Shown: positions 25,501 through 63,718 of the stretch, one piece after another
Layout of the letters: every line of letters starts with the position of its first letter
Numbering within the stretch: the first letter of the stretch is position 1
NCBI GenBank assembly: GCA_905178155.1
Contig: CAJINV010000003.1
Coordinates: 2,375,065-2,439,064 of the forward strand
Direction: 5' to 3'
Length of the DNA: 64,000 nt
Origin: Amoebophrya sp. A120
Lineage: Eukaryota > Protista > Dinoflagellata
Position numbers and translations under genes: made by a program
Notes under the pieces: generated by a model
The model's input: only the letters and a program-made list of their open reading frames with translations
Told to the model about the DNA's origin: nothing
Databases searched by the model: none

Positions 25501-28500
25501 AAAGTGATAAATAAATCTGTGCTGCGTGTAGTACTGCAGTCTCAGAAGCTGAAAAAATGGTGCTGAATGCTCGGCGTATGTTGACAAAAAAAAGCGACAT
25601 CACCAAACAAGTCGAATGAAATCATAAATCGCAGGTTGGGTTTTCCGATCGGCTGTACCTGCCGTTCAACCTCTCGCTGAAGCACATCAAGATTCGGCAG
25701 AACCTGGAGGTGTTCACCGGCACGCGGCCCGAGTTGTACGACGTGACGCGGTGCGCACCGGAGATTTTCGAGATTGTGGAGCAGCTGCGCGAGCTGAAGC
25801 GCGCCACCCGCATCCACCACGCCAAGGAGTACTTGAAGTGCTTTCCCCGGGTGGAGTGCTTGATCAAGCTGGAGATTCTCTATCAAATGCAAAAATGTCT
25901 GGGTCTGGAAGATTCTGGGACTTGTCATGCTCATTTTGCATGAGCCATGACGTCTGTGATGCATGCCCTAGCATCACAGATTTTTTCGGAGCTTCTTGAT
26001 GCCCATTCCGCACGACAAATGCCATCTCCGCCTAGCAAAAATTGCCTTTTCCTGGAATCCAAACGCAGCATCACAAGTTCCAACTCTTCCAGACCCAGAC
26101 TCTTTTGCATTTGATATTCTCTACGGCGACTACATTTCGGACGAGGAGTATGGAAGCGTCAGGTTTGAAATCGTCAAAGTTGAAATAATCTGTAATGCAT
26201 AAAATGCATGATCCGAGGTACTTGTGTTGCAGAGCAGGCAGATGACGCCATTGTAAGCCTGTTTGGGGTTACAGCTCGAGCTGTTAAAGTAGGATGAGAA
26301 AATCACTCTTCTTTGCCTAAACAGCATGACAAACTGGATTTAGGGACCACCGAAATTTGTCATGCGCCACTTGGGAACTGGGTTCCAACTGGCATCCATT
26401 TTATGCATGACAAATTATTTCAACTTTGTCGATTTCAACTCTGACACATCCATAAGGAGCTGGCGGGCGGCATTTCGCCGGAGCTGGCGGCGTACCTGAA
26501 GCGCAAGGCCGAGGAGGAGGCGGAGCTGGCGGCGGAGCAGGGTCTCGAGGTGCCGCACGAACAGCCGGTGGCGGTGGACACGGACGGGGTGGCCCCGACC
26601 GCGTCGAAGCGGGCCAGCGAGAAGATGACGCGCAAAGCCGCCCTGGACACGCAGAACACGGCGTTCGAGGTGGCGGAAGAGTTGAGGAGGACAAAGTCGG
26701 TGCCTATCAAAAGCAAACATGTCTGGGGCTGGAAGAGTGCAAGGTTTATTGTTATGCGCGTTTTGGATAGCCCGCAATGTCTGTGATGTATGCCCTAGCT
26801 GCATCACAGGCTTTCTTGTGCGGCCCTCCTAATGCCTGTCCTGCATGAGAAATGCCCGCCGCCCTGCAGCATAGACTGGATTGCTCTACTTGCGGTTCAC
26901 GCAATGCAGATTTTTTGAGCGTTCGAAGGCAGCATCACAGCTTGTAACCTTCCAGACTCAGTAGACACATTTGCAATGCATAGTGCCCAACCTGGTGCGA
27001 CGGAACATGGCGGAGGTGCACCAGGCATCGGAGGACAACACGCGGTTCAAGTCCATTACCAACTGTAAAAATGTCTTGGTCTGGAAGAATTCATGTTTGT
27101 CATGCTTGTCTGGCATGACTCTTAAATCTGTCATGCATGTTACCCAAGCGCTCCGTTTTTCTGTGATGCAGAAGCGCAGTTTGTCATGCAGAATAGGCAA
27201 CACCTAGGAGCTCAGAAACTTGTCATGCTAAGCCAGCCTCTGTAGCCTCATCATGAGACGCCACCCAGCATCACAAGTTTCCAGACCCAGACATTTTTAC
27301 TTTTGATATCCATGAGCAAAGTGACGCTGGACCTGGAAACCTTCCTCGACCCGCAGGAGGAAGTGTTCATCTACAGCGGGCAGAAGCTGCAGAGCAGCGA
27401 ACTGCAGAAACAGTACATGCGGGCCCAGATGTGGCCGCTGCAGGAAAAGTGCATGTGGACGTACTCCCCGATCTACAACAGCAGCGCCTTCGAGTTCGAA
27501 GAGCTGCCCACCGGGCGCCCGGGGAACGTGGCGATGCGGGAGGAAGTGCCCGTAGTGGGCAAGGTGCCCTTCCAGTACCCCAAGGCGCGGGAATCGGAGG
27601 AGTACAAGAAACCGCAGAGCGACGTGTCGGACTTCCGCAAGTGGGAACTGGAAACCTTCCCGTGGGCCGAGAACGAGTGGCACGGTCTCGCCGTCGGCGC
27701 AGAAAGAAGGAAACCCATCAACGCGAAAAAAATCTTCGACGCAGAGAGGGTAAGGAAGTGCCTACTAAAGAAGAAATTTTTGCGTGCGATGATTTGTTTT
27801 TTGGTCGTCCTGAAAGTAGCTTACGTGTAAAATAACATACGTTTGTTTTGCTTTTGCTCGCCACAGTAACATGGACGTTCCTTGTTCGTCCTTCAATCGA
27901 CTGAAACGTACGTGACGCTTTCTGAATTCTAGTCTGTTCCTCTTCACACCGCACAGGTTCCGCACCTGCGGGAGCACAACGACCGGCCGTTCGACGCGAG
28001 CCTGATCGAGCGCCGAAACCGGGAGTTCGGACCCAAGAGCATGAACGAGACGGTGCACGAGGCTGGGGTGGTCTACGAGAACCACGTGATCGAGATCAAC
28101 CGCAAAGTATCAAGAAGAAAAATCCCCCCTTCCCATATCAGAACAGAGATCTGTGATGCAGATTTGTGGTCACAAATCAGCTTTTTCATGCTAGAAGGCA
28201 AAAGCTGCGGGCTTTAGTGCTGGCTGGCGTGGGAAAGCCTTGCGTCTTCAGCATGACAGGAGGCAACTGGAAGTGGGAAACAGCACGAAAAATTACCTGC
28301 AATTCAGGCCACAACTGCGTCTCTTGGCCTTCTAGCAATACAAGCCGATTTGTGTACTCAGATGCAGCGTCACAGGTTTCGTTTTCGATATGGGGAGGGG
28401 GGATTTTTCACTTTGATACAAGGAGAAGGAGATTCGCGAAGCCGGGCGCATCGGGCCCGACGTGATGGGGTTTTACAACAAGGACTACACCAAAAACGGT

Positions 28501-29458: not shown

Positions 29459-30232
29459 AAGCCTGTGCGTTTGACCTCTTTAATGGCCGCTTCGAGAGAG
29501 GACATAGAACGCCTTGGCGATGGTTAAGAAATTAGACTCACGATGACTCACGAAAACTCACTCAACTAACTCAGATCAAAAACTTTTCACATTTTCTTTG
29601 GACTCACTCAACTGACACGAATAACTAACTCAAACTCAAAAAAAGACCACACTTCGTGGCAACCTATGGACTCTTTTGTTGGAACTGACTTTGCGAACAA
29701 GATAGAATGTACACCAAGAGAACAATGCGCTGTACCGAAATTTTATGAATGCTTTCGATGCTGGGCTGGGCAGCTTCTACCTGCAGGCCCTGCAAAAGCG
29801 AGGAAAACGAATCCAAGTACTCTCTACAGATCGAGAATACAGAACGGAGAAAAGAAAGAAAGTTTAGATTCAAAAACGATGCATATGTCGTTGGAGCGAG
29901 ACGGAAATGGAAAGCAAAGCCCCACGCGCGATCCTTTTCCATGTCGGCACGTGTTCTCTATTGGGGGTCGGAGGGAAGAAACAAATGAAGGAATGAGCTT
30001 GAAGATGGCATCGCTCACACGTCACTCTTGGCTTTGTCGTGCAACCGTGCAACCAATCACTGCCTTGCAATCAGCGATAGAAAGTAGTCTGCTTCAACAT
30101 CCCCCCTCCTCTCTACTAGTGCAAAATCGCGTCGTTTTTTTTGCGTCAAAGTATAAGTATCACCAAATTAAACTCGTTCCTGGATACTCTTCCCTCTCAT
30201 CCTCTAACACACAAAAATCTCCTTCACACTTG

Positions 30233-31588
30233 ATGCAGCTCTCTGTTCGCGGGAATGGTAAAACGGCGAAGCTTGCCTTAGAGCCGGATGACCCGTCGGT
30301 CGCCGAACTGCTTTTGGCGATCGAGCGGGAGCTCGGGATTTGCACCTCGCGGCAAGTGTGGCGAGCCGGGTTCCCGCCCAAGGTACTCGATACCGCCAAC
30401 GTTAGCACGGTGAAGGCAGCAGGCATACAAAATCGCGACGTGGTCACTGTGGCAGAATCAGAAGCTCCACTGCGGGAACGAATAGGGACCACTGGGTACC
30501 CTGCCGCAGAACAAGCACCAGCCGGTCCTCCTCCCGGGGGCGCAGCAACAGCGAGTTCCAGCGCAGCACCGCAGCATAAAAATGCCGGCGCGAGCGCAAC
30601 TCCCTCCGCGGTCGTCCCTGCCCTCCTTCAGGCCACAGACGGCGTGGAGAGGCACATTATTGCGGCCGACAATAGTTGCCTGTTCAATTCCATTTTGTGG
30701 AACTTCGGCCCACGGCATCCCAAGACGAGGACCCAAACAGGCACGACCATGACGCCGCAGGCTCTCCGCGGGGTGTGCGCGCAGGAGATCCGCGGGGATC
30801 CGAGCAAGTGGGACATGCTCACACTGGCGGAGTGCGACAAGCCGAGTCTGGAGTACGCCGACTGGATTTCCAAATCCGACTCCTGGGGCGGCTTTTTGGA
30901 GATGATGATTCTCTCGAACTATTTCCAGACCCAGATTGCCGCCGTGGACATCCGCACCGCGCGCCTGGAATACTTCCCGCACCTCGAGGGCTTAGAACCG
31001 GCGGAGCGGGAAAAGTACAAGGACCGCATGTTCGTGTACTACGACGGTATACACTACGACGCGTGCGCGCGGAAAACGGGTGTTGGGAACAACGACGGTC
31101 TAGTCTCCGGAAATGGCCTCTTTGCGGTGCAGGATGACGTGGCGCTCACGCAAGTCGTCGCGGCCGCGATCGAACTCAAGGAGCAGAAGCAGTTCACGGT
31201 GACGGCAACGTTCACGCTGCAGTGTCAACACTGTTTCAAGTTGCTCACGGGCGAAAAGTATCAAATGTAAAAATGTCTGGGTCTGGAAGATTGCAACTTG
31301 TCGTGCTAAATCTGCAGCATGCAAAAGTCTGTGTTGCATGATTACCAAAAGTCGTTCAGTTTTGACCAAGTCGGGAGGGAGTTTCTCATGCAGGATAGGC
31401 ATTAGAAAGGTCTCGCAGAGTCTGTCATGCTAGGTCCTGCAATCCAGACCTCATGGGTCATGGAAGAGCAGCATGACAAATCGCGCACTCTTCCAGACCC
31501 AGACATTTTTACATTTGATAAAAAGGAAGCGCAAGGACACGCGAAGGAAACAGGGCACTTCAATTTTCAAGAAGCACCAGGATCCTAG
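30233..31588 (+). CDS. OTU1: OTU1/YOD1 deubiquitinase (UBX-like + OTU + C2H2 zinc finger)
   Basis: N-terminal RQVWRAGFPPK. Catalytic motifs IAADNSCLFNS, SWGGFLE and YDGIHYD. The zinc finger CQHC..LLTGEK|EAQGHAKETGHFNFQE is complete only after removing 31259-31525 (exons 30233-31258, 31526-31588). Confidence 0.93.
31259..31520 (-). mobile_element. Introner family A element (262 bp), DR AAAAG/AAAAG, reverse orientation
   Basis: Perfect 32-bp TIR TATCAAATGTAAAAATGTCTGGGTCTGGAAGA. Splits the OTU1 zinc finger. The internal marker TTTCTCATGCAGGATAGGCATTAG is reversed relative to the copies at 26705 and 57304. Confidence 0.96.
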
Positions 31589-34581: not shown

Positions 34582-37500
34582 ATGCCTGAGGAAGAAGGAG
34601 CTCCGGACGAGGTGGCAATCGCCGTGGAGGGCGAGGACGAGGCGGAGGCGGGCGCGGAAGAACAGGCGGAGGAACAACCTGAGGAAGCAGGCGCAGAAGC
34701 CGACGCCACCGATGAGAACAAGGGACAAAAGAAGGTTGGATCGGGCAAATACATTTTCGATTCGGAACAGGTTAAAGAGGTACAAGACGACATTGACACT
34801 GCGGATGCCATACGCATTGCAAGAGATACCGATCTGCTGGTCTGGAACAAGATAGCAAATTTGTGATGTTGCAGCTCCCTGAAAACCAGATCACCAAAAA
34901 ATTCTGTCTCGCATGAATCCGAATATAAAATTGCCTTTTTTTTGTGACACGAACTGGGGAGTATTTTGCATCCAGGACGATGAGTGGAGCCTTGTCAGAA
35001 TCTGTGATGCTAGATCATGCATTGCAGAACTTGCGGGACCACGGAGGCATAGAAAATCTGCATCACAAGCAACTGCATTCTTCCCGAGGACCCAGACGTA
35101 CTACTTGCAATCCATACGCCAAAATAAGGAGTAGGCTCAAAGAGAAGCCAAGCACTCTCGGTCGCGGAACCACGCTCGCAAACCTGGAAAAGGCCACGGA
35201 CGAGAATAAATTTGCTCAAGTCGTCGCAACCGCGTTCGGAGAAGACACCGGGTAAGTAAGTAAACGTACAATTTCACCCTATTGACAATTACTGACGCGT
35301 CGCGGGATGCAATAAGGACATCAATACATAAAACTGACAGTAAATAAAAGCTTCCCACGACCGTTGCTCTTCTGCTTTGGTTTTTTTTGGAAGATCATAT
35401 TGTTCTTCCTCTTCGATAAAAAGGATGCTTAGAAGGTCCTTTTTGGGTGAGAAGACGGAAGGTGATGATTTTGCAAGAACTTATGCACCGGAATAAACGT
35501 ACAAATACAAAACAGCATCGGAAAGCATTTAAATGAGCAGTTGGCGAACCGAGAATCGCAGCAGGGGGCGTTCGCCGTGCTGCAGGGGTCCGGCCAGGGA
35601 CGGTCGATGGGGCGGCCGGCCAGTCCGGTCACGCCGTTGGTGCAGCGCGTATATTCCCTCGGTCACATGTTCGACGAGGAAGACAGCCCGCTGGCGAAGT
35701 GCGTGCGGGAGCGGATCGCGTATTTGCCGACGCGGATGGAGTTTATGGATCCCGACTTCGACTGGTTTAAGAGTCGGTGGACCAGTGCCAACCGCGTGGA
35801 GGTGGAGCCCCTGCTCTCCTGGGAAGACCTGATAAAGCTCCGATGGCGACACATGAAGAAGAACGTGGACATGTACTGGCAGGTGTACTCGACAGCCATG
35901 GCGGTCACAGTCTGGGGCACCACCTTGCACGTGGTCGACAAGGGCTTCATGGGAGGAGCGCCGATTGCGAAAGACTTCTTTCTGGAGCGAATGCAGCTGC
36001 CCCCGCAGATGTTCGGTATCTTATCTTTTTCACGCTCAGTTGTTTCCCTTTCTTTCTCGGGCACTTTGATTTTACGTGCCCACACCGCAAAGATAGAATA
36101 AAGAAAAGTAGAAGACCGACAAAATCACCTGATGGTTTGTTCACCATGTACCTTTTTCGTCCGAGCAGTAGACCCCTTCTCTTCTTGGATGTCGTTTTTC
36201 TTTCTCGACATCAAATGTTTCGAACGATATGAAAAAACCTGGTGGATGTTGTGAAATACAAACAAATTATCGATCAACGATAAAACAGGTATCTTCAGCG
36301 GCGTGATTTCCTTCCTGTTGGTGATTCGTGTGAATCTTTCGTACGGGCGTTGGTGGATGGCGCGGCAGGAATTGGAGAAGTTCGCTACCCAGTTTTACAT
36401 GTTCGCCATCACGCTCTGCTGCTGGGACCAGTTCACGGTGACCTCGGGGAAGGACCACTACCTGTTCCGCCGCCGCGTGTGCGGGTTGATTTCCCTAATG
36501 CACGCCAAGTGTTGCGAGGAGTTGCGCGAGAGCTACGAGTCGCCCTCCTTGGGGGACTGGTATTTAGAGGATTCCGTGCAGCGGACGATGAACGACCACA
36601 GTCTCGTTCAGGAGATCATCGGCGTAAACAACGACTCGGAGCCGGTCCGCGACAAGACGGCGCAGGTGTACGCGTGGCTGGTGATGCTGGTCTCCGGCCG
36701 GTTTTTCAAGTGCCACTTTGTCCCCCCGCCGCTCCTGACCCAGATGTTCGCGCTGATCCAAAACGGGATGCAGTCCTTCCACAGCGCGCTGGTGATCCGA
36801 AACACGGAGTTTCCCGAGCCCTTCACTGTGATTGTGGTGAACTTGAGTACGCTGATGGGGTTCCTGATCCCGGTCGTGATCCACCCGCTGCTGGACTTTC
36901 TGCTCTGGAAGTTTCTCCTGCTCACCATCGCCATGTACGGGTTCGTCGTCACGGGCCTGGTGGCCCAAATGCTCGAGGACCCGTTCGGAACGGACACCTT
37001 CGATCACCCACTGGATCAGTACCAGATAGACTTTGACATAGCCCTGATGGAGGTCATCGACAAGTTCGACTACCGAGTGCCCTTCGCCACGGAAAACGGC
37101 TTGCGGGAGGACGACTACAAAAAGGCGATGGCAGAAACCATTCGGTGGAACAACTGCGCCCCGAAGGCACCACGGGAGCGCGTGGGACCCACACAGGGCG
37201 CGCTACGGATCATTCGCAGGGTAGACGCCACAAAGGACGGTATAAGATTGTTCATCAGAGAAGTGGAAGTAGGGGACTCATTCGGTTTCGTTGGTTATCT
37301 TTTGTGCAGCATCGTCCTGCATCATAATACATCTCTGTGTGATCATCCGCTTGGCGTTGTTCATCTGATCCGCGCAGCATTCGCACCGAGACTCACAATG
37401 ATCATTCTTTTGCGCAGCTTTAGACCAGGTGACTTTAATATTGGCTGGAAGCACTGCCACTGAGTCTCGTCGACATGAAAATGTTGATTTTATTTCAACA

Positions 37501-44576: not shown

Positions 44577-46502
44577 ATGGCGTCGAGATCGAAATTGGGT
44601 GCCTTACGCGAGGCGGCGGGGGTGGACAAGGATGAGCTGATTGGCAACTACATGGAGGGCCTCCGCCAGTCGCAGGGCGCCGGTTTTGGCGGTAGTCAGC
44701 AGCTGGTGACGATGCGGCCCGCGGGCGCGGAGGAAAAGACGCGGATCATGAAACTGCTGCACACCATCGAGAAGGACGTGGAAGAGTTCATTGAAGATCT
44801 AGAGGTGATCTCCCACAACATCGTCGTCCTCGCGAACGAGGTGAAACGGTCGTTTATTACAATGAAAAATGCCCTCACTCCAGAACTTGGCAGCATTTGT
44901 ATTGCAAACCTTTCCAATGGCAACATTCCCCGTCTTGCAAATGTCAGCATCACAAATTTTCCATGCTGAATAGCTCAAACCTGTGCTGCAAAGGAGCCCA
45001 CCAGCAGCCGGGTCTGTCATGCAAAAGACACCTTTCCCTTGCGCACCTAGATTCTGCATCAGAAAGGCTCGCAGTCCTTTCATGCAAGACAGAAAGCTTT
45101 CATATGGAAACTTTGCATGAGAAACTGTTGCAAATTCTGAAAGGGAGCATTTTTCATTGTAATATCCTTCACGAAGGAGGACGAGGTGTCCAAAGTGCGG
45201 GAGTTTCAGGTCAACATGGACCAGGGGAAGAACTATTGCGCCAAGGTGAAAAACTGCCTCGCCGACCTGGAGAAGCTGCAGGACCAGAAAAACAAAGCCA
45301 GCCAAGCGATGACCAAAAGGGAGCGCGAGTACTGCCAGTCCGTGCTCGGAACCTCGACCTCCAAATTCCAAGCCGCCGTCAAAGAACTACTCGCCGCGCA
45401 AAACACCTTCGAGAAGGAGGCGAAGCACAGGTATTTCATAGCACGTTTGTCTTTCGATTCCTGGAGGGTCGTAGTTGAGAAGTCTGGGAGGGGGCCTTGC
45501 AGATTCAGGAGGCTTTCCGTCCCGATTTACAGAATTTTCAAAGACGATGAAGAGATCAGTAGATATTATGAGAAACTTATTTTCGGTACCCCGTGTGGTC
45601 AACTGGCATCTTGAAGCTGCATTGAAAATTTGGTAAACAATGATCGTCTTCCATTCATCGCGACATTTACATTTTGAATACATTTACGCTGCCTGTTGTA
45701 GGTGCATGATCATGATGCATTTTGCTGTATTTCAATATGCCTTCCTCAAAATAACAGGATGAAGCTTGCGTTAAGCACTTTATACCCGGATGCGTCGATG
45801 GACGAGGTCGCGACGCTTGTGGAGAGCGACAATACGGCTTTGTTGCAGACCGTGATGCGGAAGAGGAGCGACGCCAGCGACGACCAAGCGATGCAAGAGC
45901 AGCTGATGCTGCTGCAGGAGCAGTCCGACGCCATGCTGGAGCTGGAGAAGTCTGTTCTGGAGTTGAACGACCTGTTTTTCTACCTCTCTTCGCTCGTGGA
46001 GCAGCAGGCGCGATCTCTGCAGTCGATCGAGGATAATGTCAACAAGACCGACCAATTCGTGGGCGAGGGCGTGCAGCGCTTGGCCCTGGCAGAGAAACAC
46101 CAGGCGAGCTACGACTGGAAGCGGAAGTGGTTGCAGACGGGGCTGATGATCTTGTGCTGCTTCGGCATCTGCATCGGCTTGGGTTTCATCCTGATGTACT
46201 GCCAGCCGGTCTACGACTGCGTCTACGGCACCGCGGAAGCCGGCGTCGACGGAGCCACGTCCGCCGTCTCTGGGAGCGGGGGCGAAGGAGCGAAGAAAGA
46301 GAGTTCTTTTCAAGAAGTGCTCGCTCACCAGGAGGTGGTTGCGGCTCCCGCAAAAGTAGAGGTGGAGCCGCATGTAGAGGTACTTGATGCCCCCGTCGCG
46401 CCGTACGTCGAACCACCTTCCATATCGCACCGCGGGGGGTACCTCTCGGTCGTGCGGTCGCGTGCCTCCTTGCTACGCCAACGAGCAGTGAAGATGGTTT
46501 GA
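44577..46502 (+). CDS. Syntaxin (Qa-SNARE) paralogue 2
   Basis: Exons 44577-44854, 45170-45430, 45758-46502. SNARE motif SDAMLELEKSVLELNDLFFYLSSLVEQQARSLQSIEDNV, TM helix and ~100-aa C-terminal extension. Confidence 0.9.
44855..45164. mobile_element. Introner family B element (310 bp), DR TCGTT/TCCTT
   Basis: TIR TATTACAATGAAAAATGC / GCATTTTTCATTGTAATA. Colinear with 59715-60020 throughout. Removal gives KRSFTKEDE. Confidence 0.94.
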
Positions 46503-50207: not shown

Positions 50208-51167
50208 ATGATGGAACAGCAGGAGCAGGCCACCGAGACCTTCGAGGACGAGGTAATCCGGAGCGTGGTCCGCCAGATCCGCAGCGCTTTGAAGATTCCG
50301 ACGGACATTCTGGAAAGCCGGTGGCGACAGCACCTCGCTGCGGAGTCTGAGGAGCGACATGACGTCCCAGGCACGAGTAGCGGCTCTTCAGCAGCGCACG
50401 ATCGCGGACCACCAGGAGGCCCACCTCTATTGCCCAGAAAGAAGGAGCAGCTGCAACCGTGGGAGATGTTTTCAGCCAAAGCAAGGGCGCTACAATCACG
50501 ACGACCCGCAGAGTCGGAGAAAGATGCAAAGGAAGGTGCTCGGAACGATCCTACAACGGGGCGTGTAGCGCACAAGCAGGGCAGCGCGGCACAAGCTAGC
50601 AAGCCTGCGACATCCTCGGGGGCCGCAAACAAGAGAAAGCGGTCCGACTCTTCTTCGTCCGAAGACGAACTTCTAGAGGACGACGACCTCGAGGAAGTCG
50701 TTGGGGCTGCGACAAACAAAAGCGTAAAGGAACCACCTCAGCTCGACGGCCAAACGGAGGGGTCAAGGGAAAATTTCTCGCCAGGGGACAACTACCAGGC
50801 CGATTTGGCCGTAAGTGCGGCTGCTTTTTTCGACGGCGAAGATGATCTTGCCGTCCCTGCCATTGTCGGTGCCGGCAGCGCCCTCGGCTCAACGAACGGC
50901 ATAGACCGGCTCGACGAAATGCCTGCTGCGTTGCTTCCTTTTGGTTCAAACGCCAGCAGTAGAGATCATTTAGGGAAGGGCGGCCTCCTCGCTCCTGGGC
51001 CGCCTCAATCGCTGCAAAAGCCGGAGAATTTCGTCGTGGGCCGGGGGAGCCTTGAGCGAAGGGACAAGACGAAGTGGCACGTGCGGCTCGAGACCGGTTT
51101 TATTTCCCTCCAAAACGGTCAGCGCGAACTTCTCTTCAAAGAAGGAGAGGCGAAGCTGCATTTCTGA
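50208..51167 (+). CDS. Divergent TFIIA large subunit (TOA1/GTF2A1-like), intronless
   Basis: N-terminal EVIRSVVRQIR...LESRWRQHL and C-terminal ENFVVG...RRDKTKWHVRLETGFISLQNGQRELLFKEGEAKLHF match the two conserved TFIIA alpha/beta regions, with an acidic linker between them. Confidence 0.72.
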   Translation: MMEQQEQATETFEDEVIRSVVRQIRSALKIPTDILESRWRQHLAAESEERHDVPGTSSGSSAAHDRGPPGGPPLLPRKKEQLQPWEMFSAKARALQSRRPAESEKDAKEGARNDPTTGRVAHKQGSAAQASKPATSSGAANKRKRSDSSSSEDELLEDDDLEEVVGAATNKSVKEPPQLDGQTEGSRENFSPGDNYQADLAVSAAAFFDGEDDLAVPAIVGAGSALGSTNGIDRLDEMPAALLPFGSNASSRDHLGKGGLLAPGPPQSLQKPENFVVGRGSLERRDKTKWHVRLETGFISLQNGQRELLFKEGEAKLHF

Positions 51168-51590
51168 ATCAGACGACAACCTTTGATAAGCCTGTTTTTA
51201 TTCTGCATCATCAACGAGTGAAAAAACTAGAATTTTTTTGCGCGAGAAACGCTTATTCTCTGTGTTGCCTGAAGACGGAAGTAGTACGAATGTTCTTTCT
51301 TCCAAGATGCTAGAGCTCTAGCAAAAGAAATGCGACTTTAGTTGTTTTCAAACTTGAAACTTTCCACGGAAATAAGCGCGGCGCACAACGAAAGACCTGT
51401 GGGCGGACAACAGTCGTGCCCACGAGTGATCCGTGTCGAGCGAGAGAGATTTTGCTGCTTCAGTGAGAGCATATGGAGGACTTGTTGTAAATGACAGTGT
51501 TGTCTTTCTCTTTGCACCGGCAACATACTTCATACGAGGAAAGTGCAACAAGAATTTGTAAGATTTGTATCGGTTTGAGGAAATAGAATT

Positions 51591-53128
51591 ATGGCGGTGG
51601 AGGTGCCCGCCGCGCTGCAGCCTGCACTGCAGCAGGTTCAGAAGTCTCTGGAGCCTCTTTACGAATTCGGAAGAAGTACGGCCTCCAATGTGGAAAAGCG
51701 TGCCAAGGAAAATCCTCTGCAAGCGCTTGCCGTCACTGCAAGCGGGGGCATCGTGACCGGATACTTGCTCAGTATTTTCATCGCGCTTTTTTGTTTGTAG
51801 CTTGATTGATGGACGTGGAAAATCTGATGCGAAGATGAATTTCATCACATTAACATAGGTCGGCTCGCAGCAGTTGCCTTTTCGCGAAAAACGGCGGCCA
51901 AAAAGGGCAAGGGATCCGGTGGAAAAACAAGGGTGTACTTTTTGAGGCACGGGGAGTCCACGAACAATGTGCGAACAGAGGAAGCTTTTCGTGAACCCGA
52001 TCCCGGTCTAACCACGCTCGGCACACAGCAGTCCGCAAACATTGGCAATTATCTGTAAGCAAATCGATAATTGTGTTTCTCGGATTTCTTCCTTCGAAAC
52101 GTATTGGTTGACTCGGCCATGCTCCAGTGAAGACATAAGTGTCCACAGACAACATGATCCAGTGAAGACATAAGTGTCCACATTCAAAATGCAGGTCTAA
52201 ACTCGCTTCGTACTACAACTTCAAGCAAGTGTTTGTGTCACCCATGAAGAAAACCCTCGCGACAGCGTCCACTTTGACCAGCTTCCTTGCAGCAACACCA
52301 GCAACTGCATCGATCCATTGCGAGGTAGTACATACGTCCTTACACCTAGTTGTGAAAGGAATTATGTACGATGTTGCGAATGGATAAAGAAAAGGGTATC
52401 CACAGCAATTGTGCAAAGAGATACACTGAGGATTGGTTAGTATACTTCTTCGATCTGCGAGAAGTCAAATAATACGCCACTAAAAGTACGTTTTCAACAC
52501 ACCAAATAAAGGCACACCCACTGATTTACGAGTTTGGAGGGCTCTTCGACGAGAAGTACGGAGCAAGCAAGGGGTTGACAAGAGCGGAAATGCGCGCGAT
52601 CGCGCCCCAAGTGAAGTTACCGGAGGACGCGGATAAGAAGCTCGCGTTTCCATTCCCAGGCGATGACAGCGACGGCTGGTATGAACGCAACGCGAAAGAG
52701 AGCAACGCAGATTACCTCAAGAGGGTCAGTCAAGTGGCAGACTGGCTCTGGTCGCTCGACCAAGCAACCTTGGTATTGCATCTTCGACGAGACTTCTTAT
52801 CGGTTGTTTTGTGCAGATGTTGCTTCTTGCCTTCATTTTTTTTTTCAGAAGGATGGAAAAAGTCGTGGGAATGAAATTTTATACTTCACAGCTGGTGACG
52901 CACGGGAAGTTTCTCGACACCCTATTGAAAGTGCTGCTGCGAGTACCGAGCGCGTTGGAAGCCGATTCCCCCTGCATTTTCCTCCATGGCGGCTGCGCTT
53001 TCTCCTGTGTAGAATTGGACCACGACACGGGCAAGGTTGGGGTCATGTACCTGAATCAACCTATCGTCTCCGAGTCCCGTTTGCGCACCGGGCACAAAAT
53101 CGCGGGCTTCTCCCTGAAGCAGTGGTAA
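51591..53128 (+). CDS. Histidine phosphatase / phosphoglycerate-mutase-family protein with N-terminal membrane anchor (5 exons)
   Basis: Exons 51591-51771, 51859-52054, 52195-52324, 52512-52772, 52892-53128 (all GT-AG). Motifs VYFLRHGESTNN, DPGLTTLG, VFVSPMKKT, IYEFGG and LVTHG. Confidence 0.85.
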
Positions 53129-54036
53129 TGGGTGAAAGGTCGAGGAAACCTGCAAGAAACTTCACCTCGGTCGTGGGAACAACGGTCAACGCGCTAGAAA
53201 TAAATAAGCTCTCTGATGTAGTAACTATCTTGTTCATCCAACTCGATGGAATTATCGTGCCCGTATTTCTTTCGTTTTAACTACGCAATTCAATACACAA
53301 ATCAGAGCTGCTCCACTACAAGCTCAATGTCTAGCTGAAGATGAAAAAACTAAAGTCAAAAGGAAAGGTGAAGATGGTGTCAGCGTCGGATTACCAAGTC
53401 GTCGAGAAAGAACGCACCAGTTGAACCGTTTTATGTACCTAAAGCAAAATCTACGTGAGCAGTGCATGTCTTAATCTTACTTTCAGATCAATCACGAGCG
53501 ACGCTCGGGAATACAGACAAATTTCTAGAAATGCAGGAAGTCGCTACATTGGACTTGAATGATATTACCATGAAATGTAACAAATGATTTATCCCCATGA
53601 TGGCTGCTGGACTCCTTGCAAAAGTCAACGAAAGTCACATTTTGGTAGGAGACGCAAGCAAGGAACACGACCTTCTTCGGGAGTAAGTTCGCGCCATCAA
53701 TATTTGAGGTTGATGACATCAGGGCTAATCTGTTGGAAAGGGTTGCAGGAATGCTGCATTTTGTTTGTGGAGCATTTTGGGGCAGATAAGATGCGAGCAT
53801 TTACTACTGTTCGAACAAGGTGGGGTCCGAGAGATGGATTCGGGGGCTTTGCTGTTTTTTTCTGGCGGAGGCCAATCGATGCATATTTGCTTTTCTGGGA
53901 GCGAGAGTTGTAGTACAGAGGTCGACATTGAATTTTTAGCAAGATATCTGCAATTAGAGTATACTCACTCGTAGTCTACTTTGCCGCTGCAAGCACGTTC
54001 AGAAAAATCTTCACAACCATAAAGAACCCCGCTACC

Positions 54037-55809
54037 ATGAGCGAAGAGGCTTCTTTTGTGGAGCGCCAGCCCCTGCTGTTCCCTTCGGCCGGGTCGTCTT
54101 CCGCGGGCTCGCAAACCGCGGCCTTCTCGCAATACCTCAACCTGTTGGCGTCCGAGCTCACTGCTGCGCATACCGCGAGGCCCGTGTACGAGGAATTTTC
54201 AGCGTCCGTCGTCACATCCCCCGCGGACCTACCCGGTGTGCGGCAGTTGGTTGCTGGGGGCAGTTTGGTGGATGTTGGGGGCGTGCCAAACATGGACAAT
54301 CCGGAGCGGCACGACATTCAATTCGACCTCCCCGAACTGGCCAAGAGCGTCGTGCATGGAAGAACCACAACCAGCGGTACTAGTAGTGCAAGCAGCGCAG
54401 GAGCTGCCAGTTCTACTGCGGCATCAACGGAGTCGTGCCAGTGCCTGGGCGCGTCGGCCGCCGCCCCCATCGTGGCGGGGTGCAATGCGGAGGGGATTCT
54501 TTGCTGCACGCTCGTGGACGGTGGGGACACGGAAAACGCTGGCCATTCGGACTCCAAGTACACGAAAATCACGAGCGACAAGAAGTGGGGACCCCACGCA
54601 CTGCATGTGTACGACGAGGGCCCCCGGCAGCTCCTCGAGCTCCCGCCACCGGCAGGTCCCGGTCAGGAAGTAATAGACCCCTTCGCAACGCGAAGGTACG
54701 AACCAAACGGAAGAAAAGTCGGGTGTCTTGCCAACCTCTACATCGCGAAAAATCATGTAGTTCTTGCGACGGACAGTGTGAAGACTGTTGCAGGACCTCC
54801 TGCTTCGGCAGCACCAACTGGCGATAAAGATGCTGTGTTTACCTTTACATCCACACAGATACTCCGTGTCGAGGCAAAAAAACGCGTTCGCACGACTCCC
54901 AGATATTGTAAGGACAAATCCCATCGTCCCCGCATATTTTTACAGGATATTTCTAAAGATGGGTGATATGTGTACGCAAATAGATCTGGCTTTGTTCCCA
55001 CGCCAGACAGCACTACAGGCCGCATCTCTTCGCTGCTAGCAGGCAGCTTCAAGAACATTTGTGTTAACTTTATGAGTGAATGATGCTACACAGTTTTTTG
55101 AGTATGGGGAGGAGGGATCGTTTTTCATTTTGATACGAGGATACACAGCTTTACGCAGTGGTTGCGGACGACTCTGGAAGCCGAAATCCTGCCGCAGCTG
55201 CAAAAAAAGTTGGCTCAGCAGCAAGCAGCACACGACCCGTCGGCCAAGTTTTACCCGGATGATCACACCAGCGACGCGCGGGGCTTGGGCCTGGGAGGCG
55301 TCATTTTTGTCCGGAGCGGCTACGTGCACGGTCACGTAATGCCGGACTTTTTGCCGGAAAAGATCACCTCCGCGCAGCAGTGCAACGATTGGCTCCGGTT
55401 TTTCCTGTGCGGCCCAGGGCACTTGGTGATGTTCTCGACGCTTCTGGCCCTCCCCACCCCGGCGCAGCTGGAAAGGACACGGTATGCGGGGATGCACCTC
55501 CGCACGGAGCACACGCACTTTTTCGGCTCGGAGCGCTGCGCGAACCAGGGGGGCCACTACCACGGTGACGTCGTGCGGCAGCCGCCAGGGGCTGTGAAAG
55601 AAGCCACCAATCATGACCTTGATGCCGATGGTGAGCGGTACTTGGCGTCTTTGTTCGCGAACGCAGACAGAGAGAACCCTTCTTCAGCCGATATCCACTA
55701 CGTAGCATACCTGGCTCCAGCTGCTGAGATCGTTCGCATCAATGACGCGGAGAAGATACTTGCTAAACAGCAAAAAAACCTCCAGGTTGAGGGCGGTACT
55801 ATGAAATAA
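54037..55809 (+). CDS. Ester hydrolase C11orf54/PTD012 (DUF1907)-like zinc protein
   Basis: Exons 54037-54903 and 55141-55809. Motifs LVDVGGVP, CLANLY, ILRVEAKKR, GLGGVI, HVMPDF, LRTEHTHFF and GGHYHGD. Confidence 0.87.
54904..55135. mobile_element. Degenerate introner-like element (232 bp), DR CCAGA/CGAGG
   Basis: TATTGTAAGGACAAATCCCATCGTCCCC ... GGGGAGGAGGGATCGTTTTTCATTTTGATA, resembling the 28108 ends. Removing 237 bp gives RTTPR-IHSFTQWLR. Confidence 0.8.
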
Positions 55810-56691
55810 AAGACCTAGCGCTTTTTTGCATTCAGGGTGTATTCAGCGAGATTTGCGTGTTGTAGTTGCAAATAGGCAAAATTAACGCCAACTTGTGCAG
55901 GCACGCTATGTATATGTTTTTGATGATACACTTGTTGATGCTTTTGGTACTTGAGACCGTGTTTCTTGGTAGTCCCTTGTATGCATAGAAGACAACTCGA
56001 TGCACCGAGGAAAATGTTTCGCGTGTAATTCTTGTCTCTTGTAGCCCTGCGGAGAGGAGCGTGGTAGCTGATTGATTGTGCATTAAGTTGCCGTCAGGGC
56101 TACTCGCTCGCTCGAGAAGTTTTGCTGTGTACGTTCAGGATAACAAAGACCTGTTGGGTGTGCGACAAAGCAAATCTCTTGGTTGGCAATACACCCTGAA
56201 TGTTGTTGTGCTTTATACTGTAAAAGACTCCAGCACCAGCGAAGTTATGATTTTTACCACCAAGATAGAGTCTCACTCTCAGTGGTCTGACGCGGAGACC
56301 AGTCTCCATGCAAAGAAATACTCAACTGACGAAGCAGCTTCATAATGTGTTCGTTCTCCTAGGAGCGAAAATCGAGGGCTTTGACAGACCTACTCAATGA
56401 ATGTGGAGCCGTGCGATACGAAAACGAGAGAATTTCCTTGGATAAAGTGGCCACTCGATGTTTGCGGAATTTTTCTACTGCTTCTAGCCTGCAGATACCT
56501 ACTTTGAGACGACCAATTTTCACACTCCAGTACCACTTGCGGTCGGACCCAACAGCTGTGCCCTGCTGGAGCGATAAAGTATTACACAACAAATACACGG
56601 GCAAAGATTTTCCATCGTGCAAGAAAAAGAATAGAAGTTCCCTAGACCTGCTGCTTTAAACTACAATTGGAGCAGCTGCAGCACTCAGTAG

Positions 56692-57625
<934 letters not shown>

Positions 57626-58483
57626 TGAACAACCCGCGACGCAGGGATGGAATATCTAGGGTCATCGTTTGCCGATCATCGTTTTCATCGTGTCGTACTA
57701 ACTTGTAGACGGAACTAGTTTTGCTTTTAATTTTGAACTTTTGGTTGTTATGATTTTCATTTTGCTGCAAGACCGAATGAAGAAAAGTAGCTCGCCAATG
57801 ATCAAGTTTTGCGCAGCTGAAGTAGTACAGAGTACAATTATTAATATGAGTCACAGTTGTCAGTAGTTGTATAAACCTCTCCTGCTAGTAGCAACAGCAT
57901 CGCTAGTGAGGTGGAGGTGGATAAGTAAATACGGTCACTACTTTGGAAATTTTGAATTCATGTGACTATGGCATTAAGAAGCTTTTCCTAATATTTTGTT
58001 TCCATTCATCGTTTTGTTTTGTTTCAGCACTTGGAAGACGGGCTTGCATGTGTGAAGATTTACTTGATTGCAAGTTCGTCGTGATCTTCCGAAGGAGGAT
58101 GTGTTTAGAAAATGCCAGAAAATTTTGGAACTTTCTTTATACCCCCGAATGATTCTTTATTGCAACTTCACGTCGAGTTTTCGACCATGAAAGCGAGAAC
58201 AGAAACACGCAGGTGAAAACACGTGTCACCTCGCGGAATTGTGGAGGTTTTTCTTGCCACAGCTGATGTCCCCTTCTGAGAACATGAGAGCGTGAAGCCA
58301 TTGCCACGATGAACCTATGACGAGAGTGAGGACAAAGACAAAAGTGATTTTGTTTGATGTTGATTTTTAGGTTCAGGTATATGCTCTTTGGTCGTTTTTT
58401 TTCCAACTACGCCCCGTCGTTTTTTCCTCCACGTAGTTTGTTGAGCTTCAGCACTGTCGGACACAGAAATTATCTCAGTCAGG

Positions 58484-61400
58484 ATGAGTTTCAACGAGGA
58501 CAAGAAGAAAAAGAAGAAAAGCAAGCAGGGCACCACGCCAGCTTTGGACGAAGCGGCCGGGCGCACAACCAAGCAAGAGACCACTCCCACGATCACCGCA
58601 GAATCTGCTTCGTCAGTAGAAACTGCGGTCGTCGAATCGCCCCAGGGATCTGCTCTTGAGGGAGATAAAAACAGCGTGAAAGAAGTAGATGCAGCTGTGC
58701 CGCCTCTTGTAGTGCCGGATCCTGTTGGTGTTGCCGTGCCAACGGAGAAAAACTACATCGAGGAAAGCAAAGCATCGCGCAGCCCTTGCGTTCCTGCCCT
58801 GGTGCAGCCGTGTTGCGAGGCTCCTATCGCTAGTGGGTCAGAATCCGTCATCGAGGAAAATGCGCCGGAAGCGGACGTTGGCCAACCCAAAACCGCCGAA
58901 GGAATTCCACCGAAAGACGGTGAAGAAGATGAAGCTGCTCGGAATAATATGGAAGTTGCTGCCCTGACGCCTGAAGGCAAAAGCGACACCCAGGTCGTGG
59001 ACGCACCGCGAGGACTTCTTTCGGAGGAAAAAAGCACAGGCGGTTCGCGTCGTGTCAGTCGATTGTCTTCCGCCCCGTCGCCGGCAATCAAAAAGGCCCC
59101 GGGCGATGATGCGAGGTTCGAGGAACCTGGAGATCAACAAGATGTTGAGCAAAAAAATCCGAATCCCTCGTCCGGCGTGGTTGATGAGACGATTGTGCTT
59201 CCCGTTCCCGCGGAACAGACCACCGAGCATGCGAAGCCTGTCCCCGAGACTGCCACGCCCAACCGGTCGGGTTCCCAAGGTGGAACCGAACTCGCCAGCT
59301 TGGAGGTGGTACCCCTCCCGGAGGGCTCCGACCTGGAGTTCGAAGTCGAGGGGGCGGACGAAGAAGTGATGTTCATCGAAGACATATCCTCAGTAAAAAC
59401 GTACCCACACCAGAGTTGTAATGCAAATCTGCATGCTGAAAATGTTTCTCATGCGGAGCCCCATGAGAAGCATTTTCTAGTCGTGTTTTGCAATTTGTCA
59501 TGCTCCAATCAGCATGGTATGCTAGATCTGTGATGCTGCTGAGCTAGCTCAAACAGCACTACACTACGAATCCAAATTTGTCATGCAAAACAGCCAAAGC
59601 TTGTGGATTTGTCTAGCCGATTCCCCATCTTGACTATGGTGTGGGTACGTTTTTACTCAGGATAAGACAGCGCTTCCGGAGCGCTGCGGCACAGCACGCA
59701 CGACCCTAAGACGGTATCAGAATGAAAAATGCCCCCACCCCCGAACTTGAAAGCATTTGTATTGCAAACCTTTCCAAATGAAACATTCGCCCTCTTGCAT
59801 GTATCAGCATTACAGGTTTCCAATCGTGAATAGCAGAAATTTGTATTGCAAAAGACCCCAGCAAGAGCGGCGCTTGTCATGCAAGCGATGCGATACACGC
59901 CTAGACTCTGCATCAGAAAGATTCGTACTCCTTTCACGCATGACAAAAAGTTTTCATTTGGAAACTTAGCATCACAAATTTTTGCAATTTCAGGGGTGGG
60001 GGGCACTTTTGACTGCAATAGACGGGCACCGTGGTATACTCCCCCGATGGGACCCTGCCCGCTGACGCGGCACTACTGCCGCCGGCCTCGCCGGTGCCGC
60101 TGCCAGACGGAGTTGAACTGAACGCGGACGGGGGACTGGACATGAGCACACTCGAACGCGCGATGAGCCCGCATCTGCAGAAAGGCCCGATTTCCGCGAA
60201 GGAGCTCAACAAGCGGATCACGGAACTGCGGAACCACCACACCAGCCGGCGCGGGTCCTACGACGGCGAGAGCGGGGCGGACAGCAGCGCCTCGCCGGCG
60301 GCACGCCGCACGCACCGTGCAAAGAAGATGAACAAACGGGACACGACGACGACGACGACGACTGCCCAAGTGAATGGAATTGCTGAGGATGGTGTAGTTG
60401 GCCACGACTCGTCTTCTGGAGCTTGTTCGACCTCGGGGGTCAGCTCCTCTACCGAACCGCTGAGGACCGACGACGAAATATCCTGAGTAAAAACGTACCC
60501 ACACCAGAGTTGTAATGCAAATCTGCATGCTGAAAATGTTTCTCATGCGGAGCTCCATGAGAAGCATTTTCTAGTCGTGCTTTGCAATTTGTCATGCTCC
60601 ACTCAGCATGGTATGCTAGATCTGTGATGCTGCTGAGCTAGCTGAAACAGCACTATACTACGAATCCAAATTTGTCATGCAAAACAGCCAAAACTTGTGG
60701 ATTTGTCTAGCCGATTCCCCATCTTGACTCTGGTGTGGGTACGTTTTTACTCAGGATACGAAACTGCTGGAACAGGAGTTAGAAATACAGGTGATGGGAG
60801 TTGTAAACCAACTGCAACTGGTACTGGCGCCCAAAAAGTTGCTCTAGACGAATCCGCCTCTACAGCTGAGGCATCGACAACGACCGACCAGGACACAGGC
60901 ACCACCGCTTCGTCGTCGCTAGGCGACGAGGGCGGTGCTACAAAAGCAAAATCGATATCATGTAGTGAAAAGGCGGGTAACGGTACTAAGGACACTTTAG
61001 TCTTGCAGACCACCGCTGGTGCAGGAGCAGGCCCAGTAACCGCGGCGACCACGAGCAGCAGCACAGGCGGCAGCCACGAGGCCGGTGTAGTGATGCTGCC
61101 GCGCAGTGAGTCGGCTGTCAGTTTGCCCGCCATCAACTCCCGCGAGTTCCAGGATTTGGTGGACCAAAACCTGATTTTGGTGGACTGGGAGCGCGAGGAA
61201 GGCATCGGGGTGAAGACCGCGATCTACACCTTGACCGGATCTATCGTGGGTGCGGGCGCCGTCGCGTGCCCCTTTGCGTTTCAGTTCATGGGGCTCGTCG
61301 GCGGTTCGTTTTTCCTCAGCCTAATGGGGTTTCTCTCCGGGCTCTCGGGCTACATGCTCGGCATGGCCGCGCGGAAGACCGGGCTGCACTCCTACGAGGA

Positions 61401-63718
61401 GATTGCGGTCACCACCATGGGTCCGCGCATGGGCAAGGCGCTGGCGTTGCTGTCGGTTATAGGTGTGACGTTCTGCGCTTCCATCGCCTACTGCAACCTC
61501 TGGGCCGACACGCTGCTGCCCATTCTCGCCTGTTTGCTGCCCGCGTCCCAGACCGCCGAGGTGCTGCAGAACACGTCCGTCAAGTCCTTCCGGACGCTGC
61601 TGATCGTCTCCTGCGTCGTATTGATCTTGCCACTCTGTCTCAATCGCACGATGTCCGGCGTTTCCACCGCGAGTCTCCTCTCCATTCTCGCCATGGGCGT
61701 GCTCATGCTCGTCATCTGCTTGTACGCTCTCAAGAACGCACTGCAGTCCGACAGCGAATGGACCATGGAGAACGGTGCGCTAGTGTTTCAGTGTGTGTTT
61801 CAGTTTGTGCTCAGTTGATACGATGCAGCTTATGGCTCTCGTTAGTCTCTTATTTTACTTGAAGAACATTCTGTAGAATGCCTTGAATTTGTACTAGTAG
61901 AAAAAGCAATTTCTAATTTGTCCGTGCGTTATATAAAAATCACAGAGAAGTACGAGTGGCTGGGTCCCAATCCGTTTACGGACGCGCGAAACCACCCTTG
62001 CCACGGGATTTTTTCCGACCAAGACGCGCACTGGGACGACCGGAAGACCTGGCTTAACGATCCGTCCGGTTTGCTGATGGGGATTCCGTACTTCTGCTCG
62101 GCGTTTTTGTGTCACTTTAACGTCTTCTCGGTGTTTGCCGAGATGCGCAAGCCGACGCGGGTGCGACTGCAAAAGGTGATGCGCCGCACCATGCTGATCT
62201 CCGGGAGCCTGTATTTGGTGATCGCAGCCTGCGGTTTCTACGTTGGGCAGAGCTATCATGTTGAAAAGCGCCCCTATATTTTTTCCCAGAACCAACGAAC
62301 TTGAAAGCATTTGTATTGCTGCAAAGCTCCTTATCCTTTCCAATGGAAACATTCTCCATCTTCTTGCATACTCTAGCGACACAAATTTTTGACGCAGACG
62401 ACAAGTTCTTTCCATTTGAAAAAACTTTGCACACTTGTTCTGGTAGAATCGGGGCACTTTTCACTTTGATAAGGGTTACGAGAAGTTTGCTTTCTCGGTT
62501 TCAGACAAGAAAGTGTCGGAGGTCCTCCCGACGCTGAGTAGAACGAGCGGACGCACACTGCTTTCGGAAGTGCCAGATGATTTTGGACAGCAGCTGCAAA
62601 CCCAAAAGTTGCAACAGGAGCACCGTGTTGTTCCAGGCGCTCGACCGGAGCGAGATGATAGCTTTTTCGACGGAATAGAGCATGCGAGCGGGATAATCTT
62701 CGCGGGAAAAGCCCCCGGAAGTCTAGCTGCTTCGTGGCCCGCGACTTCTCCGTCGATTCCCTCACAGTCAAGCAGTCATACCTCGTCGCGCGAGACACAG
62801 AAAATGATTATTCCGGCGACGAGCATTGTTTCCCATTCTGCAAAAATGACCGGGGTGAAAGACGACCAGAAATTAATCGGAGGTAGTACAACCACTGTAG
62901 TTCAACACCTCAGCTCCGCGTCGTGCGACATTGGGGTCCAGGGAAACATTCTCCAAAATTTTCCGCACGACGATTTTTTCGTGAATCTGGGACGGTTCTG
63001 TCTGTTTATCGCCTTGTACTTCACGTATCCGCTGCTAATCCACCCGTGCCGCGCGAGCTTGCACCGCAGTCTGTGCGGCGACACGTACCGAGCGACGGGA
63101 CTTTTACATGGTGGCGAGACCTTCCTGATCATGTTTCTCGCCAGCCTGACGGCGATTTTGGTACCAGAGGTGCAGATCGTGCTCGGCTATGCGGGTTCGA
63201 CATTTGGCATTCTGCTGGCCTTCGTGTTTCCGGCGTTTTTCGTGCTCAAGCTCTCGGTGGCCCGGGACAAGCGCAATCTGATCGCCTTGCTGATCTTCTT
63301 GTTCGGCTGCGTGCTGTGTGTGGCGACGACGGTGATTCAGACGGTGAATGAGGACGTGATGAAGAACGGGAACAACGTGGATGTCCTGCAAGAAGTAGAG
63401 CCGAAAACTACGTCAAACCAACCGGGCGAACGAGAAAGTGCTGCTGTCAGCTGGTACACAAACTACGTGGCGGTCGACGAGGTGACCAAGAAGCCCTTTC
63501 GCCAGGCTGCGCACCCCCGGCAGCTCTGTCTCACCGTGGAAGCGAGCAGCACAACGAAAGTCGAACGGCTGCTCAGATACGTTTCCTTGAAGCAACAGTA
63601 TGACGCCACGGGAACCCCGCCACCCCTCCCGAAAATGGAAAAGTCCTCTGCGTGGGCGCTCTCGCACGGCTGCACGAATGCGACAACCACGGGCGACGCG
63701 GATAGTAGTACATCATAG
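58484..63718 (+). CDS. Amino-acid transporter (Aa_trans / SLC38-like) with long disordered N-terminus
   Basis: Exons 58484-59384, 59670-59714, 60026-60478, 60764-61774, 61946-62253, 62477-63718. Motifs SIVGAGAVACPFAF, SYEEIA, AFLCHFNVF, QGNILQNF, TYPLLIHPCR and GSTFGILLAFVFP. Confidence 0.9.
59385..59664. mobile_element. Introner family C element (280 bp), DR AGACA/AGACA
   Basis: TIR TATCCTCAGTAAAAACGTACCCACACCA / TGGTGTGGGTACGTTTTTACTCAGGATA. Near-identical to 60479-60758. Confidence 0.96.
59715..60020. mobile_element. Introner family B element (306 bp), DR GACGG/GACGG
   Basis: TATCAGAATGAAAAATGCCCCCACCCC ... GGGGTGGGGGGCACTTTTGACTGCAATA. Removal gives DPKTGTVVY. Confidence 0.94.
60479..60758. 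mobile_element. Introner family C element (280 bp), DR CGAAA/CGAAA
   Basis: Perfect 32-bp TIR TATCCTGAGTAAAAACGTACCCACACCAGAGT. Removal gives TDDETAGTG. Confidence 0.97.
62254..62471. mobile_element. Introner family B-related element (218 bp), DR AGAGC/AGGGT
   Basis: TATCATGTTGAAAAGCGCCCC ... GGGGCACTTTTCACTTTGATA. Shares GAACTTGAAAGCATTTGTATTGC with 59715. Removing 223 bp restores the frame. Confidence 0.88.

What the first reader, a model, noticed from the sequence alone, without database searches (positions are those of the whole stretch)
28103..62476. Mismatches between the two direct-repeat copies are almost all synonymous
Seen: six elements have imperfect DRs. Read in the host frame they are AAA/AAG Lys (28108), GAT/GAC Asp (34811), TCG/TCC Ser (44855), CCC AGA/CCG AGG Pro-Arg (54904, two changes), CGG/CGA Arg (57304) and AGC/GGT (62254; one silent-position change, one Ser/Gly). 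So 7 of 8 mismatches are at silent third positions. A purely intronic DR copy should mutate at any position. Inference: both copies are constrained. Either the junction slides within the DR so that either copy can reach the mRNA, or the intronic copy is held constant as a recognition/alignment signal while only the exonic copy drifts silently. The mismatches are natural markers for mapping the exact cut. The sample is small, and the candidate at 20651 does not fit.
Basis: partly seen in the sequence, partly recalled or inferred. Interest (0 to 1): 0.88.

Follow-up and report, generated by a model that had tools for sequence, protein, structure and literature searches.

The report
Transposon introns cut inside flanking repeat
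These are already-described jumping-DNA introns of a marine parasite; RNA assemblies show three of them removed at one narrow spot inside their 5-base flanking repeats, and the 'nearly all silent' mismatch pattern drops to half in 26 cases from a close relative, so it is likely an ordinary half-coding effect inflated by a small sample.

Summary
In detail: 6 of 15 hairpin-ended elements in the window have imperfect 5-nt direct repeats (DRs), and 7 of the 8 mismatches are silent. The elements match the Amoebophrya A120 introners of Farhat et al. 2021. The inference 'both DR copies are constrained' is not supported. RNA contigs of one run give one joint for each of three mismatched elements; two are hybrids of both DR copies, and all three fit one cut after DR base 3 or 4. 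So each DR position has one exonic and one intronic copy, which predicts about 34-45% silent mismatches. An independent set from a close relative (176 elements) gave 13 silent of 26 confidently framed mismatches. That rejects 'almost all silent' (P about 4e-6 at 87.5%) and 'no constraint' (P 0.007), and fits the fixed cut. The window's 7 of 8 stays high (P 0.013-0.024), and minor slippage is not excluded because contigs drop rare forms. What is worth keeping: DR mismatches map a cut that the paper left unplaced. The scan noted similar hairpin/DR introns in other genomes, not this bias.

The parts
28103..28423 (+). Introner 28108-28418 (311 nt) with DRs CAAAG / CAAGG; mismatch at DR base 4, Lys AAA/AAG; would be GT..AG if cut after base 4
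   Evidence: junction not mapped in RNA
34806..35121 (+). Introner 34811-35116 (306 nt, decayed TIR) with DRs TGCCA / CGCCA; mismatch at base 1, Asp GAT/GAC
   Evidence: junction not mapped in RNA
44850..45169 (+). Introner 44855-45164 (310 nt) with DRs TCGTT / TCCTT; mismatch at base 3, Ser TCG/TCC; in one of three tandem paralogous genes (syntaxin-like by recall, no Pfam hit)
   Evidence: junction not covered in run X1
54899..55140 (+). Introner 54904-55135 (232 nt) with DRs CCAGA / CGAGG in a DUF1907 gene; RNA joint 54900>55138 gives hybrid CCAGG, cut after base 2-4
57299..57571 (+). Introner 57304-57566 (263 nt) with DRs ACCGG / ACCGA in a ubiquitin-conjugating (E2) gene; RNA joint 57298>57567 carries right-copy base 5, cut after base 0-4
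62249..62476 (+). Introner 62254-62471 (218 nt) with DRs AGAGC / AGGGT in an amino-acid transporter gene; RNA joint 62251>62475 gives hybrid AGAGT (Ser), cut after base 3-4; the Gly allele is intronic
59380..59669 (+). Introner 59385-59664, perfect DR AGACA; RNA joint removes element + 5 nt
59710..60025 (+). Introner 59715-60020, perfect DR GACGG; RNA joint removes element + 5 nt
60474..60763 (+). Introner 60479-60758, perfect DR CGAAA, perfect TIR, 95% identical to 59385; no joint listed in X1
25876..26121 (+). Introner 25881-26116, perfect DR TTCTC
26144..26459 (+). Introner 26149-26454, perfect DR AGGAG
26700..26987 (+). Introner 26705-26982, perfect DR GTGCC
27052..27313 (+). Introner 27057-27308, perfect DR TCCAT
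31254..31525 (+). Introner 31259-31520, perfect DR AAAAG, internally inverted relative to 57304
19546..19885 (+).
20646..20870 (+). Candidate degenerate element 20651-20865; flanks CGGGA / CCCCG (1 of 5 alike); removing element + 5 nt leaves an open frame, but a GT..AG alternative is also open; unresolved
   Evidence: (no family hit)

Best explanation
The elements are MITE-like transposon introns with 5-base target-site duplications, and RNA assemblies show three of them removed by a cut inside the duplication, likely one fixed cut after base 4, so each repeat position likely has one coding and one intronic copy, which would make about half of the mismatches silent and the window's 7 of 8 a likely upward fluctuation. 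Shown: TIRs, 5-nt DRs, removal of element + 5 nt, hybrid DRs in RNA contigs, 13 of 26 silent in a relative. Inferred: insertion by a cut-and-paste transposase (TIR + TSD anatomy); the TIR stem juxtaposes the ends in the pre-mRNA and the cut is measured from it (intron = left base 5 + element + right bases 1-4) without reading the end bases; a modified U2-type spliceosome as the enzyme (from PMC7789003, not tested).
For: Joints remove element + 5 nt at 5 of 5 elements with a listed joint; cut bounds 2-4, 0-4 and 3-4 intersect at 3-4; two mRNA DRs are hybrids. Retention puts an in-frame stop in 9 of 9 elements tested. TIR ends pair in 7 of 7 folded elements (z -4.3 to -13.7 in five, only -1.5/-1.6 in two). 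Independent set: 13 of 26 silent, 16 of 32 with weak frames included, 4 of 9 in older (TIR<=21/26) elements; expected 0.34-0.45. A120 homologues carry the left allele at DR base 1 (L028; Gly in 5 of 5 homologues) and at base 4 (L035). No base preference at DR base 5 (G 31 of 89, flank G 0.31), both orientations used (28:32), 4 of 104 GT..AG under this cut. [quoted passage not shown]
Against: Window 7 of 8 has P 0.013-0.024 under this null; pooled 20 of 34 has P 0.036-0.074. 13 of 26 is compatible with the intronic half tolerating only 30-100% of non-silent changes. At L131 the A120 homologue has the right allele (Lys) at base 4, which favours a cut after base 3 or needs an exonic Lys>Arg change. 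The RNA evidence is three informative joints from contigs of one run whose RNA status is a tool guess; contigs drop rare forms and no DNA run was laid. The independent set is biased to young elements (29 of 176 mismatched vs 6 of 15 in the window, P 0.035), and its frames are model calls (control 12 of 15 right; 11 of 12 among confident calls). PMC7789003 Fig. 3 legend calls splice sites variable relative to the hairpin.
Confidence: 0.7

Rival explanations
1. A main cut after base 3-4 with minor slippage inside the DR (or a general need for DR likeness) puts weak selection on the intronic half, raising the silent share above the neutral 0.34-0.45.
For: Window 7 of 8; pooled 20 of 34, P 0.036-0.074; point estimate of tolerance 0.5-0.7; conflicting base-4 homologue evidence, L035 left vs L131 right.
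Against: The independent set alone fits the neutral null (P 0.26); one joint per element in contigs; Gly>Glu tolerated at a conserved site in L028.
Confidence: 0.18
2. One reading: both DR copies are constrained, because the junction slides freely or the intronic copy is frozen as a signal, so almost all mismatches are silent.
For: 7 of 8 in the window.
Against: 13 of 26 in the relative: P 4e-6 at 0.875, 6e-4 at 0.8, 0.005 at 0.75. Hybrid single joints. DRs share no motif, so there is no signal to freeze.
Confidence: 0.05
3. The joints are reverse-transcriptase template switches between short repeats at a hairpin base, or DNA-level excisions, so they do not report the real RNA cut.
For: Hairpin plus short homologous repeats is the known artefact substrate, and direct repeats are not strictly required (PMC2923612, passages). 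No DNA run was laid as control; run X1 is RNA only by the tool's guess.
Against: Retention would truncate conserved genes such as the E2 enzyme. The joints keep frame and sit in one register with only 1-2 shared bases at two elements. The same contigs carry canonical GT..AG joints. A120 protein models read through such sites.
Confidence: 0.07

Closest known systems
Introner elements (IEs) among the non-canonical introns of Amoebophrya sp. A120 (Farhat et al. 2021, PMC7789003; sections 10, 11, 16 and supplement legends read)
   Same: TAT-start inverted repeats followed by about 7 variable bases and an A-run, 3-5 nt DRs overlapping the borders, repeated families, roughly 200-330 nt, hairpin, no fixed splice dinucleotides. 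Exons beside the same element families in the relative match A120 proteins at 82-100%.
   Different: The paper leaves the border inside the DR unknown or variable, and 'synonymous' does not occur in its main text. Here the mismatches place three cuts after DR base 3-4 and show hybrid DRs.
Euglenid non-conventional introns (PMC12501133, abstract and section 8; PMC11282704, passages)
   Same: Paired ends, TSD-like repeats, and a cut set by spacer length from the paired motif (3 nt and 5 nt there; likely 1 nt and 4 nt here).
   Different: Euglena needs a CAG/CTG motif and prefers a purine at the exon start; no base preference was seen here at DR base 5. Unrelated lineage.
Introner-like elements of Polarella, Symbiodinium and Aureococcus (bioRxiv 10.1101/2020.10.14.339549, passages)
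   Same: DNA-transposon origin, TIR + TSD, splice points inside or next to the TSD, either orientation in some classes.
   Different: Those recruit GT/GC/GA and AG sites from the TSD; here only 4 of 104 would be GT..AG.

Membership tests
Amoebophrya A120 introner elements | Terminal inverted repeats starting TAT, about 7 variable bases, then 3 or more A | tested here: met
   consensus arm from the relative's copies fits; some window arms are decayed (ungapped 11-15 of 24 at 54904, 34811, 26705)
Amoebophrya A120 introner elements | 3-5 nt direct repeats overlapping the exon/intron borders | tested here: met
   5-nt DRs perfect in 9 of 15 window elements and 140 of 167 found without using the DR; cut lies inside the DR
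Amoebophrya A120 introner elements | Repeated, in families | tested here: met
   window copies 87-97.5% identical to copies in the relative
Amoebophrya A120 introner elements | Removed from RNA, mostly without GT-AG | tested here: met
   5 of the 7 elements in the stretch laid show joints in run X1; RNA status of X1 is a tool guess
Amoebophrya A120 introner elements | Predicted hairpin joining the ends | tested here: met
   7 of 7 folded; strong z in 5, weak in 2; prediction only
Amoebophrya A120 introner elements | Window comes from strain A120 itself | tested here: inconclusive
   No genome held; link is through shared element families and the relative's exons matching A120 proteins
MITE / non-autonomous TIR DNA transposon | TIR, constant-length TSD, no ORF | tested here: met
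   one copy (L060) has an 8-nt repeat instead
MITE / non-autonomous TIR DNA transposon | Cognate transposase recognising the TIR | not testable with these tools
   no whole genome held; PMC7789003 found no transposase in A120
Canonical U2-type or TSD-recruiting introners | GT/GC..AG ends | tested here: not met
   4 of 104 GT..AG under the base-4 cut; of the mapped window joints none is GT..AG
   13 of 26
   one joint per element in contigs, which drop rare forms; the three raw-read runs did not cover the flanks

The most novel reading that the evidence does not exclude
Tens of thousands of Amoebophrya introns are excised by a sequence-blind ruler that cuts 1 base before and 4 bases after the TIR stem, possibly without the spliceosome, and slips inside the direct repeat often enough that the intronic half of the repeat is under protein-level selection.
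Probability: 0.15. Interest if true: 0.75.

Novelty: already known. Interest (0 to 1): 0.36.

Why it matters
How Amoebophrya removes most of its introns without GT-AG ends or a detectable U1 snRNA is an open question (PMC7789003). Perfect DRs hide the cut; mismatched DRs reveal it. The three mapped cases point to one register set by the hairpin, like the spacer rule in Euglena, and the test scales to thousands of elements with existing reads. The headline claim of a silent-only bias would have implied a sliding junction or a new signal, but it does not replicate.

Tried and rejected
No whole genome held, and the relative's records could not be searched further, so no genome-wide table. Raw RNA runs X8-X10 laid 0, 127 and 597 reads, 99% running on unlike the window, i.e. 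another strain sharing only element families: no test. No holder is on record as RNA. Junctions at 28108, 34811, 44855 and 20651, replicate runs and a DNA-run control remain unmapped. Viral contigs held 0 matches. Loose TIR scans were too noisy (328 candidates). Candidate 20651: no family hit, Pfam blank on 4 of 4 exon readings, codon scores -2.8 vs -0.3 for the two open frames; its likeness to scramblases is recalled, not tested; left out of the main count. Dropped before counting: 14 candidates in the relative with DRs 2 of 5 or less alike (8 unique, 6; likely mis-paired ends, nested or other TSD length), and 6 of 32 mismatches with weak frames (3 silent). Two counted elements have weak TIRs (11 of 26) and may be mis-bounded. 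Selection for a GT donor at DR base 5: rejected. An age effect on the silent share: none seen (4 of 9 vs 9 of 17). Literature: six searches found no paper on DR mismatches or cut mapping in Amoebophrya. Most subscription papers are not searched, and Figs S19-S23 of PMC7789003 (DR and IR positions) were visible as legends only and may already show the register. PMC12005148 (passages) had nothing on introners.
Full report
What is there. The window is gene-dense eukaryotic DNA whose coding exons are interrupted by roughly 215-330 nt elements that begin TA(T/C), end (A/G)TA, carry terminal inverted repeats (TIRs) and sit between 5-nt direct repeats (DRs). I count 15, nine with perfect DRs and six imperfect, plus candidate 20651. 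The anatomy matches the introner elements of Amoebophrya sp. A120 in Farhat et al. 2021 (PMC7789003, sections 10, 11, 16 read): IRs starting TAT then seven variable bases then an A-run, DRs of 3-5 nt over the borders, U1 snRNA not detected, border position 'unknown'. No genome is held for the window, so the strain is not established. The same element families occur at 87-97.5% identity in a relative whose exons match A120 proteins at 82-100%.

The observation. All eight mismatches are as described, and seven are silent third positions. Frames were checked by Pfam hits in flanking exons, by gap-free alignment to element-free paralogues at 44855 and by codon scores at 28108 and 34811.

Where the cut is. 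Contigs of run X1 (RNA by the tool's guess; they also carry seven GT..AG joints) were laid on 44001-64000. Five of the seven elements there show a joint, each removing element + 5 nt, one joint per element. With DR bases numbered 1-5, the cut lies after base 2-4 at 54904 (mRNA CCAGG, a hybrid), after 0-4 at 57304 (ACCGA) and after 3-4 at 62254 (AGAGT, a hybrid; the Gly allele is intronic). All fit one cut after base 3 or 4. Homologues give left allele at base 4 in L035 (exons 100% identical to the A120 protein), left allele at base 1 in L028, but right allele at base 4 in L131, a more divergent gene with a Lys/Arg difference. I favour base 4: intron = left base 5 + element + right bases 1-4. 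The three raw-read runs came from another strain and gave no test; contigs drop rare forms, so minor slippage is untested; 28108, 34811, 44855 and 20651 are unmapped.

The right null. With such a cut every DR position has one exonic copy (silent changes only) and one intronic copy (free). Enumerating all changes in the real contexts gives 22-29% silent under no constraint and 32-45% under a fixed cut. The window's 7 of 8 then has P 0.013-0.024: high, but picked after the fact from eight events.

Independent test. A finder blind to DRs gave 167 elements, 140 with perfect DRs; a profile scan added 24 candidates. After removing duplicates and 14 candidates with DRs 2 of 5 or less alike, 176 remain: 147 perfect, 26 with one mismatch, 3 with two. 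Host frames were called from flanks only with a codon model (12 of 15 right on the window; 11 of 12 among confident calls); 121 of 176 were confident. Result: 13 silent of 26 (24 elements); 16 of 32 with weak frames; 4 of 9 in older and 9 of 17 in younger elements; mismatches spread evenly over DR positions (6, 6, 4, 6, 4). This rejects 87.5% (P 4e-6), 80% (6e-4) and no constraint (0.007), and fits the fixed cut (P 0.26). Three non-silent calls had their frames confirmed by homologues; at L028 the right copy reads Glu where 5 of 5 homologues covering the site keep Gly. Against my reading: window and relative do not differ significantly (Fisher P 0.10), the pooled 20 of 34 is marginal (P 0.036-0.074), and a tolerance of 0.3-1 for non-silent change in the intronic half is allowed. 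The relative's set is younger (29 of 176 mismatched vs 6 of 15).

How it likely works. Inferred from TIR + constant duplication: a non-autonomous DNA transposon inserts and duplicates 5 bp. In the pre-mRNA the TIRs are predicted to pair (7 of 7 folded, z -1.5 to -13.7) and removal is obligatory (in-frame stop in 9 of 9). The ends are not read as sequence: no base preference at DR base 5, orientations 28:32, 4 of 104 GT..AG. So the cut is most likely measured from the stem, as spacer length fixes the cut in Euglena (PMC12501133, abstract and section 8). The enzyme is not addressed by my data; the paper's suggestion is a modified spliceosome. Reverse-transcriptase switching at hairpin-flanking repeats (PMC2923612, passages) is a real risk for any such joint but does not explain the kept frames or the common register with 1-2 shared bases.

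Comparison and verdict. This is a member set of a known family (membership table). Introner-like elements of other dinoflagellates recruit canonical sites from the duplication (bioRxiv 10.1101/2020.10.14.339549, passages), unlike these; PMC12130899 and PMC11282704 (passages) list A120 introners as TIR-derived without a cut rule in the passages seen. Six searches found nothing on DR mismatches, with the limits given above. Earlier scan notes report similar hairpin/DR introns in other genomes (unchecked). The silent-only bias is real in this window but does not generalise. The lasting value is the use of mismatches to place the cut. Interest 0.36.

Noticed in passing
L060:1021-1316: A young copy with perfect TIRs (96-97.5% identical to window 59385/60479) is flanked by an 8-nt repeat ACTCGAAA instead of the usual 5 nt: a second duplication length for the same family, or a local duplication.
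   Followed up: no
L001-L151: DR base 1 falls on codon position 3 in 60 of 121 framed elements (P 7e-4), i.e. phase 0 if the cut follows base 4, although no splice motif is recruited; a symmetric target-site model predicts only 39%.
   Followed up: partly
window 20646-20870: Element-like insert whose flanks are not repeats but extend the inverted repeat (GCGGG before, CCCGC after); removing element + 5 nt gives an open frame with a further CC..EF motif like earlier exons (scramblase-like by recall only).
   Followed up: partly
window 59385-60758: Two copies 95% identical 1.1 kb apart in one gene (possible local hop); no RNA joint was listed for the second, youngest-looking copy.
   Followed up: no
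window 59558-59664, 60475-60758: Raw RNA reads of another strain (X9, X10) match only element sequence, with one consistent foreign flank each (agreement 0.82-1.0): the family is shared and present in transcripts there.
   Followed up: no
window 41540-48940: Three tandem paralogous genes (30-39% identical; syntaxin-like by recall); only the middle one carries the introner at the aligned site.
   Followed up: partly
window 16105-16929: Tandem arrays of 40-nt (5-6 copies) and 21-nt (9 or more copies) units.
   Followed up: no
window 39325-40786: Three copies of a 41-nt partly palindromic motif in a GC-rich stretch of about 2.3 kb, forming direct and inverted pairs; possibly another mobile element.
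   Followed up: no
L001-L151 and window: In transcript sense A/G mismatches outnumber C/T (10 vs 5 of 26 in the relative; 4 vs 2 of 8 in the window); may only reflect purine-rich coding strands.
   Followed up: no
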